A DNA stretch of 64,000 nucleotides. Source: Candidatus Fraserbacteria bacterium. GTDB taxonomy: Bacteria > Bipolaricaulota > Bipolaricaulia > RBG-16-55-9 > DRXL01. Location of the stretch: assembly GCA_947085185.1 (NCBI GenBank), contig CAMTVK010000019.1:1-64000 (forward strand), given 5' to 3'. Each line of letters opens with the position of its first letter. The stretch's first letter is position 1. Made by a program: the position numbers. This document shows positions 33,001 through 36,000 of this stretch, one piece after another.

Positions 33001-36000
33001 CTCGCACGGGTGATGTAGCGAGAGTCAGTCAAGAAGATCTGACGGTCTTTGGTGACGATGAGGACACCAAACGACCCGCCAAAGCCCGTCAAATAATAGA
33101 GATTGGAACGATCGGAGCCCTCAATATTAATAAGACAGAACGCCTCAAGTCTTTTCCGTCGTAACTGATCACGAAGCCGCTCGAGACGAACTGCATAGGC
33201 GTTCATAGTGCAGCTGATTATATACGAAAACCTGGGCCGAGGCGAACAAGCAGGTCATGCCAGGACACCCGTCCCACGCCATCAAGACAAATCGCCAGAG
33301 AGGTCTCGACAGCAGTCCTTCAGAAGCGGCTTCCTATCGCGTATAACAAAAACACTCAGCCGGAGCCTACGCCCTCTCTCCTCACCAAGGGCGAGGCCGG
33401 CACGGGGGAGGTGCGCCGTGGGCACGCCAAAGTTGGTCGTTGCCGTACTCGTGCTGGTTACGCTGGGTATCGTCATGGTCGCCAGCGCCAGCCTGCCCAT
33501 CGCTGCCATCCGATACGAACAGCCCTCGTATCTGCTCATAAAACATCTCATCGCGCTCGCCGTGGGACTCTGCGTCTTCTGGATCTGTTGGCGTTTAGAC
33601 TATCGAGTCTTCTTGAAGATAGATCATATTGTGCTGCTGGCAGCGCTGGGGTTGACCGCTCTGACGCTCGTTCCTGGGCTGTCCACGCGAGGGAGCTGGC
33701 TGCGCCTGCCTGGCCCATTCCAGCTCCAACCCACAGAATTCTTAAAGCTTGCTCTTGTTATCTCGTGTGCAGCCTTCTGCGTGCGCAAAGAAGATCGCCT
33801 CCACGAGTTCTCCGAAGGCGTCTTGCCTCCCCTCATAGTGACGACCCTCGCGGCCATGATGGCCCTCAAGCAGTCCGATTTCGCTATGGCGCTCATCTTC
33901 TTCCTCATTGTCTTCTGCATGCTCTTTCTCGGGGGTGCTCGGCTGGCGCATCTGGTCGGGATCGTGCTGGCGACCGTGCCCGCCCTGGCTGCCCTTGTTT
34001 GGCTCGCCCCCTATCGCTTCGGACGAGTGCTCGCTTTTCTCGATCCGTTCAAATATAGCACAACTGAGGGCTACCAGTTGGTGCAGTCACTGACAGCGAT
34101 CGGATCTGGGGGCCTGATGGGGCGCGGCTTGGGGGAAAGCCGCGGGAAATTGCTCTTCCTGCCAGAGCCGCACAACGATTTTATCTTCTCCATTATTGGG
34201 GAGGAGCTCGGGCTGATCGGCGGTTTCATCGTGCTCGGGCTGTTCGCGTATCTGACATGGGGGGGATATCTCATTGCGTCGCGGGCAGCGGACCGGTTCG
34301 GAAGATTGCTCGCAGGAGGGATCACTGTTACTCTTGCGGCGCAAGCGTGTATCAACCTCGGGGTCACCACGGGGATCTTGCCCGTCACCGGCCTGACCCT
34401 GCCGTTCATCAGCTACGGCGGCTCATCGTTGATCGTCTCACTGGCTATGGTTGGGATTCTTGGCAACATCTCACGAAAGGGCTCGCATGTTGAGAGTCGT
34501 CGTCTGTGGGGGCGGGACGGGGGGACATCTCTATCCCGCCCTCGCGATTTTGGAAGGGTTGCGGCACGCTGAGCCAAACGCGCGGCTTGTGTACGTGGGG
34601 AGCCGTTACGGACTCGAGGCCACCGTGATGCCGCGCTACAGATGGGTTGAGTTCTATAAGCTCCCCATCCGCGGGATCGCGCGGCCAGGGCAACGCCCCT
34701 GGTGGTTCTGCTGGGCGCTGCTCGCCCTCTTCCAGCTTCCCATCGCGCTCGCGCAAGCACTTCTGATCGTCCTTAGACAGAGACCCCATCTGATCATCGG
34801 CGTTGGGGGCTATGGGGCGTTTGCGCCTGTGCTCTGGGGAATTCTTCTGGGGATCCCGATCTTCTTGCACGAACAGAATTCTGTTCCGGGGATAGTGACG
34901 CGGCTCTTTGCCCCGTGGGCGAGCAAAGTCTTTCTCACTTACCCACAGACAGCCCGCTATCTGCGAGCGCGCCATGTCGTCGTGACCGGGCTTCCCATCC
35001 GCCCAGAGGTGCTGTCGGCCCGCCCCGACCCCCAGCGGTTCGGCCTGCACCAAGACATAAAAACTGTGCTCGTCTTCGGCGGCAGCCGGGGATCCCAGCT
35101 CTTAACCGAAACGGCCTGTGAGACAGCGCGCTCTCTAAGTACAGTCCAGTTTCTCATCGTCACGGGATCTTCTTCCCAATCTCCCTGCCCTCCAAGGGAG
35201 AGCCTTGGGGAGAGAGTAGTTCTTGTTCCATACATTCACGAGATGGGCACAGCGCTCTCCACCGCTGATCTTGTGATCTGTCGCGCGGGGGCAGGGACGC
35301 TTGCCGAGCTTGCTGCCTTGCGCAAGCCCGCTATTGTCGTCCCTTGGCCAGGCGCAGCCGCTTCGCACCAGATGGCCAATGCCAACTCTCTCGCCCATCT
35401 CGGCTTGTTCTCTGTAGTGCCAGAGTCCGAACTCACCCCTCAACGACTCGTTGAGGAGATCACAACAGCGCTGCAACGACACGCTGCACTCTCATCCCAT
35501 CGAGAGACTCAGCCTCCGGCAGCGCTCACCCATATCCTGCGCGAGGTGTTTTCCGATGCGACCAGAACATACGACACATCTGCACTTTATCGGAATCGGC
35601 GGCGACGGCATGAGTGGGTTGGCCAAAGTCTATTCTGAGCTGGGGTTCCGCATCACCGGGTGCAACCTCGAAGAGAACCAGCGCACCCGGCAGCTGCGCG
35701 CCCTGGGCGTGCCCGTGGCTATTGGGCACTCGTCGGACCATCTCCAGAGCGCTACGCACGTCATCGTCTCCTCGGCCATCCCTCCAGATACTAAAGAATT
35801 GCTCGAAGCCCAACGCTTGGGCCTGCCGATCCTCCATCGCCTCGAGCTGCTGCACGAGCTCACCACACAACGCTTCACCATTGGGGTTGCCGGCACCCAC
35901 GGCAAGACGACCACCGCCGCGATGATCGCCACGGTGCTCGAGCGCGCTTGGCTCGATCCCACGTTTGTCATCGGTGCGGCCTCTCCGACGTTGGGCACTC

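What a model noticed while it worked through the whole genome (the two positions that open the first line are those of the whole stretch)
33418..34572. No class A PBP: a single FtsW-FtsI pair is the only peptidoglycan polymerase, phylum-wide
The genome has the Mur pathway, MraY, MurG and MurJ but no glycosyltransferase-51 (aPBP) domain, no RodA/MreB and no DacA; its only polymerase is one SEDS protein (FtsW, g01445) with one bPBP (FtsI, g00640, C5:474-2120). The same holds across Bipolaricaulota: a free-living phylum of rod-shaped cells building its wall with the divisome synthase alone.
Evidence so far: Transgly PF00912: 0 of 101 phylum genomes (55 at least 90% complete, incl. single-contig genomes), controls 10 of 10 bacteria. 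SEDS PF01098: 60 of 61 genomes, exactly one over-cut match each. Transpeptidase PF00905: one match in 30 of 31. MreB 0 of 101; Peptidase_S11 0 of 51. Tables show no YceG, SLT, NLPC_P60, SepF, ZapA, MinCE, DivIVA. Search aPBP + Bipolaricaulota: 0 papers.
(Added by a program. Inside this text positions count along the whole contig: contig position 1 is position 1 of the stretch shown here. "Call 12" and the like, gene names such as g00115 and contig names such as C1 are that model's own, and its searches are not shown. The text may have been shortened before it was handed on; [...] marks where a part breaks off. The agent that wrote the report below was given it as the finding of a first reader that could run no searches.)

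Follow-up and report, generated by a model that had tools for sequence, protein, structure and literature searches.

The report
Division-only wall building in Bipolaricaulota
Nearly all genomes of the free-living bacterial phylum Bipolaricaulota carry only the cell-division pair of wall-building enzymes and lack both systems that other bacteria use to lengthen a rod, so these cells likely build their whole wall, including the rod and stalks imaged in one genus, with that single pair.

Summary
Real, with corrections. Window 33418-34572 is a true FtsW in a dcw remnant. The genome has the full lipid II pathway, one SEDS, one class B PBP (FtsI) and no GT51 domain. Of 184 phylum genomes, one matches GT51, on a contig that looks foreign. 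168 of 173 transpeptidase-positive genomes have exactly one match. MreB and RodA occur in 1 of 184. That exception (G052) is a genuine member that keeps mreBCD-mrdA, rodA, LDTs and lipid A genes, so 'phylum-wide' holds for aPBP loss but not for Rod loss. The paper's 'bifunctional Pbp' is most likely its FtsI row. Rod shape is documented here for one genus only. Best reading: FtsZ-guided FtsW-FtsI likely makes all peptidoglycan, at mid-cell and then at the new pole (0.55). Main rival: a thin or septal wall, with shape held by the outer envelope. Novelty is limited. aPBP-less bacteria are known, and Atwal 2021 Table S1 already lists Bipolaricaulis, 40 Francisellaceae, Buchnera and Sphaerochaeta with this pattern, without comment. 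This scan also found the same thing earlier on another genome (e1-9188390). Peptidoglycan is not shown chemically.

The parts
33418..34572 (+). ftsW, the genome's only SEDS glycosyltransferase (384 aa; stop overlaps the murG start)
   Evidence: PF01098 E 3e-102; TIGR02614 over cut-off, TIGR02210 under; motif LPEPHNDFIF matching E. coli LPEAHTDFIF; groups with E. coli FtsW in a FastTree
34487..35638 (+). murG
   Evidence: PF03033 + PF04101; ATG at 34487
35451..36965 (+). murC (ORF extent; likely start near 35556)
   Evidence: Mur ligase domains; best hit of E. coli MurC, E 4e-84
36946..37851 (+). murB
   Evidence: PF02873 + PF01565
37809..38546 (+). ftsQ
   Evidence: POTRA_1 + FtsQ_DivIB_C
38562..39824 (+). 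ftsA (the only actin-like division/shape protein found; no MreB)
   Evidence: PF14450 + PF02491; TIGR00904 negative
39834..40913 (+). ftsZ (single copy in this genome)
   Evidence: PF00091 + PF12327; only FtsZ hit in the genome

Best explanation
These bacteria carry one FtsW-FtsI pair and a complete lipid II pathway but no class A PBP and, outside one lineage, no Rod system, so FtsW-FtsI steered by FtsZ, FtsA and FtsQLB likely makes all of their peptidoglycan. Shown: the genes, intact catalytic motifs and the absences. Inferred: FtsW polymerises, FtsI makes the only cross-links (no LDT), and one LysM-M23 peptidase plus Amidase_3 open the old wall. Also inferred: growth is zonal, first as FtsZ-guided insertion at mid-cell that lengthens the cell before constriction, then, in the prosthecate genus, as continued synthesis at the new pole that extrudes a narrow tube. 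An SLH/CsaB/LCP tether would hang the outer membrane on this wall. aPBP loss likely came first (no native aPBP even in G052). The Rod system was then lost once or a few times, depending on the unresolved root.
For: Single SEDS and single transpeptidase in almost all genomes; GT51 absent in unfiltered searches of G000 and of the whole single-contig G005 (best E 1.8 and 5.8), and an aPBP-transpeptidase profile finds only FtsI in both. Motifs intact: 35 of 35 distinct bPBPs from the phylum loci keep SxxK, SxN and K[TS]G, and 12 of 12 FtsW-type rows keep the P-x4-DF motif. Lipid II pathway complete in G000 and G005 apart from a clear MurI; MurF model matches 25 of 25 genomes at least 93% complete, 22 over cut-off. 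LDT 1 of 74 (G052 only). Amidase_3 5 of 5, M23 5 of 5, SLH 5 of 5; LysM-M23 lies directly before murA in G000 and G005; CsaB in G000 and G052; an LCP protein shared by G000 and G005. PMC6092417 (passages): small cells have one polar prostheca, larger ones two of unequal and then equal length, width about 0.26 um. This fits outgrowth at the former division site (my inference). FtsZ-dependent, MreB-independent mid-cell elongation is reported for Caulobacter (PMC8429850, listing only).
Against: No chemical or imaging evidence of peptidoglycan or its growth site in any paper I read. In Rod-less rods that were studied, polar growth needs an aPBP, and FtsW depletion or loss of both PBP3s gives a division defect (PMC8546619, passages). 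The other organisms with this gene pattern are spherical (Sphaerochaeta) or coccoid to pleomorphic (Buchnera, Francisella; shapes recalled). The remodelling kit is very thin: MltG 0 of 184, FtsK 0 of 25, FtsX domain 1 of 5, RlpA 2 of 5 and absent from both single-contig genomes tested. Cells collapsed on drying and the prosthecae bend. The bactofilins (5 of 5) sit beside DUF4004, a context I recall from the B. subtilis yhbDEF operon, so they need not be shape factors.
Confidence: 0.55

Rival explanations
1. Peptidoglycan is thin or confined to the division ring, and rod and prostheca shape are held mainly by a Thermotoga-like outer envelope (Omp-alpha/beta, many secreted PKD and beta-rich proteins) and cytoskeletal filaments; FtsW-FtsI does only its usual septal job.
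For: Minimal hydrolase and processing kit; flexible prosthecae and collapse on drying; Omp-alpha/beta and CsaB reported for the phylum (bioRxiv 2021.05.31.446380, passages); other aPBP-less bacteria are suggested to have sparse peptidoglycan (PMC8406291, passages); synthesis genes are dispensable in a planctomycete (PMC10632474, passages).
Against: SLH, CsaB and LCP attach the outer membrane through a wall-linked polymer (established knowledge), which implies wall around the cell. The pathway and catalytic motifs are kept across the phylum. FtsZ and FtsA are present and MreB is absent, unlike Chlamydia.
Confidence: 0.28
2. An unrecognised glycosyltransferase of another fold (for example a multi-pass Wzy/GT-C-type protein such as DUF5693 beside csaB) makes side-wall glycan that FtsI cross-links.
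For: Profile searches cannot see a new fold. DUF5693 has a weak EpsG match (E 2e-5). Seven of 30 scanned shared exported or anchored proteins have no Pfam family.
Against: There is only one transpeptidase and no LDT, so a second polymerase would have no partner of its own. DUF5693 lies next to csaB, also in G052, which has a Rod system, so a secondary wall polymer is the likelier product. The four unknowns I read look like signal-peptide, beta-rich or barrel proteins (judged by eye). The screen covered proteins with one or two N-terminal hydrophobic segments only, and 30 G005 partners of 66 rows were scanned.
Confidence: 0.1
3. The absences are artefacts of incomplete assemblies or weak search sensitivity.
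For: Most genomes are fragmented bins; the genome-search tool scores only first-look candidates; 11 of 184 also lack the FtsI match.
Against: The same searches ring in 10 of 10 bacterial controls and found the exceptions. All 1,324,338 bases of single-contig G005 gave nothing in an unfiltered search. Independent KEGG rows agree.
Confidence: 0.02

Closest known systems
'PG-intermediate' (PGi) bacteria of Atwal et al. 2021 (PMC8406291)
   Same: [quoted passage not shown] Table S1 lists Bipolaricaulis (bana) in the PGi sheet with ftsW 1, rodA 0, ftsI 1.
   Different: The main text names intracellular groups and Planctomyces and never mentions this phylum. The Planctomyces row shown has two SEDS and two bPBPs. 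Here the state spans a free-living phylum that also has FtsZ and FtsA.
Francisellaceae, some Buchnera, Sphaerochaeta (same table)
   Same: Exactly ftsW 1, rodA 0, ftsI 1, aPBP 0 in 40 Francisella/Allofrancisella, 6 Buchnera and 3 Sphaerochaeta rows (2 of 73 parts read). Sphaerochaeta is free-living and shows a wall by EM (PMC3372971, passages).
   Different: Those cells are spherical (Sphaerochaeta) or coccoid to pleomorphic (recalled). The table is KEGG-label based and also holds likely annotation gaps (Deinococcus, Actinobacteria rows); I could not re-test those genomes.
Rod-less polar-growing rods (Rhizobiales; Actinobacteria)
   Same: Rod shape without MreB; FtsW-FtsI present.
   Different: Polar growth there needs an essential aPBP and many LDTs (PMC8546619, passages); both are absent here.
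aPBP-less B. subtilis mutant; Chlamydia
   Same: Wall made by SEDS-bPBP pairs only.
   Different: B. subtilis relies on the elongasome (PMC7478892, listing); Chlamydia lacks FtsZ and uses MreB (PMC7029139, listing). Here it is the reverse: FtsZ without MreB or RodA.

Membership tests
PGi bacteria (Atwal 2021) | most lipid II synthesis genes | tested here: met
   MurA-G, Ddl, Alr, MraY, MurJ, UppS, BacA in G000 and G005; MurI only a weak racemase hit in G000 and none in G005
PGi bacteria (Atwal 2021) | at least one SEDS and one class B PBP | tested here: met
PGi bacteria (Atwal 2021) | no identifiable class A PBP | tested here: met
   the single phylum hit lies on a compositionally foreign contig
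PGi bacteria (Atwal 2021) | peptidoglycan actually made | not testable with these tools
   needs muropeptide analysis or labelling
FtsW | TIGR02614 over cut-off and position before murG | tested here: met
   356 > 337.5 bits; gene order
FtsW | conserved catalytic-loop Asp motif | tested here: met
   LPEPHNDFIF against E. coli LPEAHTDFIF; 12 of 12; its catalytic role is recalled
FtsW | lipid II polymerase activity with FtsI | not testable with these tools
   in vitro assay needed
RodA | TIGR02210 over cut-off; grouping with RodA of mre operons | tested here: not met
   285 < 336.7; tree. Met only by G052's second SEDS (408 bits)
FtsI (class B PBP) | N-terminal anchor, pedestal and transpeptidase domains, no GT51; SxxK/SxN/KTG motifs | tested here: met
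FtsI (class B PBP) | follows ftsL; groups with FtsI, not MrdA | tested here: met
   ftsL-like gene C5:217-495 (TIGR02209 E 1.6e-6, under cut-off); FastTree with E. coli FtsI on a long branch
FtsI (class B PBP) | FtsI-specific NCBIfam cut-off | tested here: inconclusive
   no model passes; best spoVD 384/688, mrdA 299/455, enterobacterial FtsI 223/737
Rhizobiales/Actinobacteria-type polar growth | essential class A PBP and LDTs | tested here: not met
Chlamydia-type septal ring system | no FtsZ, MreB-guided synthesis | tested here: not met
   FtsZ present; MreB 1 of 184

The most novel reading that the evidence does not exclude
A third way to make a rod: the FtsZ-guided FtsW-FtsI complex alone lengthens the cell and, staying at the new pole, extrudes a constant-width prostheca, with no aPBP, Rod complex, LDT, MltG, FtsEX or FtsK. 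G052 is a surviving earlier stage (Rod system and lipid A kept, aPBP already gone) that dates the order of losses.
Probability: 0.4. Interest if true: 0.85.

Novelty: new variant of a known kind. Interest (0 to 1): 0.62.

Why it matters
Every rod studied so far uses the Rod complex, a class A PBP, or both, to lengthen. A free-living phylum with neither defines the smallest natural wall-building kit (one polymerase, one cross-linker, about two hydrolases). It makes directly testable whether the division synthase alone can build a whole cell and a stalk. The G052 lineage offers a within-phylum comparison with the Rod system and lipid A retained.

Tried and rejected
The G052 aPBP as a native gene: rejected as likely foreign (bin contamination or very recent transfer). 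Its 6.4-kb contig has GC 0.49 and tetranucleotide r 0.23, against 0.92-0.97 for 26 same-size windows of other G052 contigs; no ORF on it hits G000; it is a PBP1b/UB2H type nearest to Nitrospirota, Pseudomonadota and Acidobacteriota clusters. Read-level linkage was not checked. Five sub-cut-off GT51 matches (E 0.009-0.29, 26-40 residues) were treated as chance; one GT51-motif hit in G005 is in a non-coding-looking frame. Extra transpeptidase or SEDS matches: one gene split over contig ends or into two pieces (G073, G140, G177, G049, G121), duplicated dcw contigs (G149), a broken second class B copy (G048). G052 as deepest branch: not shown; two quick RpoC trees put it beside f7 plus G000's order (support 94 and 83), and holding all others together is not rejected (AU p 0.118); outgroups were distant and the careful search did not finish. 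Donor of G052's Rod genes: none found (MreB at most 54% identical, scan of 7 of 64 parts; MrdA one metagenome hit at 36%). Expression: no RNA holder listed. Literature: Bipolaricaulota+peptidoglycan 13 papers, none on PBPs by listing; Acetothermia+MreB 0 (61); Bipolaricaulota+dcw 0 (62); Bipolaricaulis+cell shape 1 (106); no mention in PMC12516126 text or supplement; three searches found no Francisella-specific text. DnaA-domain-I likeness of the second FtsZ's head: only an Atlas lead at 0.85, no profile hit. No structure or complex prediction was run, since FtsW-FtsI is a textbook pair.

Full report
Observation. The window is contig C19 of a 1.72-Mb, 32-contig genome, 96.8% complete. The gene at 33418-34572 is a SEDS protein. 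It passes the ftsW cut-off and fails rodA, and murG, murC, murB, ftsQ, ftsA and ftsZ follow it. The only transpeptidase domain is at C5:474-2120: pedestal plus transpeptidase, behind an ftsL-like gene. An FtsB-like gene lies at C5:21633. PF00912 finds nothing. Because that tool scores only first-look candidates, I built a GT51 profile from 13 fetched proteins and ran it with filters off on 13,533 six-frame ORFs: best E 1.8. A profile without E. coli rows recovered all four E. coli GT51 proteins, MtgA at 8e-39. E. coli queries find MurA, C, D, E, F, G, Ddl, Alr, MraY, MurJ, UppS, BacA, two amidases, one M23 and an RlpA-like protein, and no MltG, DacA, DacB, MreC, FtsK, FtsX or MinC. That the phylum is Bipolaricaulota comes from a named record of the same class.

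The phylum. I searched all 184 held genomes (71 of high quality). GT51 is over the cut-off in 1. Transpeptidase is in 173, of which 168 have one match. SEDS is in 127 of 130 genomes at least 85% complete, 123 with one match. RodA over cut-off 1 of 184, MreB 1 of 184, DacA 1 of 184, MltG 0 of 184, LDT 1 of 74, FtsK 0 of 25. Apart from G052, the extra matches are split genes, duplicated contigs or one broken second class B copy. To close the assembly loophole I read all 1,324,338 bases of the single-contig genome G005: GT51 best E 5.8, only FtsI found by an aPBP-transpeptidase profile, lipid II pathway present. All 35 distinct bPBPs examined keep the three active-site motifs, and 12 of 12 FtsW-type rows keep the Asp motif (these were the loci fetched, not all genomes). 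Trees place the single pair with E. coli FtsW and FtsI (FastTree). These genomes are kin, so the counts are not independent trials.

The exception. G052 (3.7 Mb, 93% complete, 5% contaminated, only member of its family) accounts for the GT51, RodA, MreB, LDT and LpxC hits. Its mreB-mreC-(mreD-like)-mrdA operon, rodA, ftsL-ftsI, dcw and lpx contigs share one composition (r 0.94-0.98), and the neighbours on the four contigs compared match G000 orthologues, many in syntenic blocks. Its RodA and MrdA pass their cut-offs. Its aPBP sits alone on a 6.4-kb contig with r 0.23 against 0.92-0.97 for 26 control windows and no G000 homologue, and it resembles PBP1b types of other phyla. So aPBP loss looks phylum-wide while Rod loss is not. 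RpoC trees do not show G052 as the deepest branch, nor exclude it. If its Rod genes are inherited, as the lack of a close donor suggests, the Rod system was lost once (G052 basal) or two to three times.

The cited contradiction. The main text of PMC6092417 speaks of a 'bifunctional Pbp' (passages). The only 'penicillin' row in its four supplementary files is FtsI, directly after the bactofilin row; MreB does not occur in that table. The 'Pbp' is therefore most likely FtsI.

Mechanism. Shown: genes, motifs, absences. Inferred: with one polymerase and one cross-linker, all peptidoglycan must come from FtsW-FtsI, recruited by FtsZ, FtsA and FtsQLB, with a LysM-M23 peptidase and Amidase_3 making room. 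SLH domains (5 of 5), CsaB, a shared LCP protein and the reported Omp-alpha/beta system (bioRxiv 2021.05.31.446380, passages; its supplements are closed and may bear on this) argue for a wall around the cell rather than a mere ring. The imaged genus has one prostheca after division and grows a second to equal length before the next, which is what a synthase left at the new pole would produce. Against this: no peptidoglycan data exist in what I read; studied Rod-less rods need an aPBP (PMC8546619, passages); the processing kit is very small; cells are soft. I give 0.55 to the divisome building the whole wall, 0.28 to a thin or septal wall with envelope-held shape, 0.10 to a hidden polymerase (a screen of 66 shared anchored or exported proteins, 30 partners scanned, showed no candidate) and 0.02 to artefact.

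Comparison and novelty. The genome meets the three gene criteria of the PGi class of Atwal 2021 (PMC8406291; passages, section 5, supplement searches and 2 of 73 parts of Table S1 read). That table already holds Bipolaricaulis with ftsW 1, rodA 0, ftsI 1, aPBP 0, as well as 40 Francisellaceae, 6 Buchnera and 3 Sphaerochaeta rows with the same pattern and rows that are likely annotation gaps; the text does not discuss the phylum. Sphaerochaeta is free-living, walled and spherical (PMC3372971, passages). PMC12516126 (first 10,000 characters, passages, supplement search) does not mention the phylum. Searches listed no paper that states the phylum-wide pattern; subscription papers are not covered. 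This scan reported the same claim on another genome (e1-9188390); its remark on a cultured strain I could not check. The second FtsZ that I met in G005 was also reported before; one note's 'every relative' does not hold, since G000 has a single plain FtsZ.

Verdict. A real, well-supported gene pattern. It is a new variant of a known kind: new in its breadth, its free-living rod and prosthecate setting, its extreme minimality, and the G052 intermediate. The mechanism is untested. Interest 0.62.

Noticed in passing
G052 (L340, L063, L061, L060, L341-L344): The only one of 184 genomes with LpxC (same contig as its rpoC). It has lpxD- and lpxA-like genes inside bamA-skp-fabZ...murD-ftsW, mreBCD-mrdA, a second mreB, rodA, FtsX and two LDTs, all on native-composition contigs. 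A Bipolaricaulota lineage with a classical lipid A envelope; other members tested have the same operon without the lpx genes.
   Followed up: partly
L348:2572-3921 (G005): Second FtsZ (449 aa) with a ~105-aa N-terminal head, a GLGKGTG signature and an intact C-terminal peptide; 23 relatives of the head, named Bipolaricaulis/Bipolaricaulota where named. Absent from G000, so not in every member. Reported earlier by this scan. A candidate for steering FtsW-FtsI outside the septum.
   Followed up: partly
phylum-wide: No FtsK/SpoIIIE match in 25 of 25 genomes at least 93% complete, G052 included (controls ring in 8).
   Followed up: partly
G000 C4:8698-10889 (L245) and G005 (L252): rho - LysM2-M23 peptidase - murA - hflX-like gene order shared by two distant families; the only M23 in these genomes.
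   Followed up: partly
G000 C21:38114-40116: No clear MurI; an Asp/Glu-racemase-like gene stands head to head with alr (E 7e-7 to E. coli MurI), and G005 gives no MurI hit. The source of D-Glu is unclear.
   Followed up: no
window 33418-42091 and other contigs: The dcw cluster is scattered: ftsL-ftsI, rsmH, murD, murE, murF, mraY and ddl lie at separate places, and ftsZ is followed directly by dnaN-like 40910-42091. In G052 and G149 the bamA-skp-fabZ operon runs into the ftsW block.
   Followed up: partly
G000 C2 (L248:5324-8055) and G005 (L254): DUF4004 followed by one or two long bactofilins, recalled as the B. subtilis yhbDEF arrangement.
   Followed up: no
window 26822-27280: Fragmentary ORFs that look like a decayed transposase (judged by eye).
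   Followed up: no
window 51328-51975: Exported protein of about 170 aa shared with G005 (30% identity); its G005 partner has no Pfam family.
   Followed up: no
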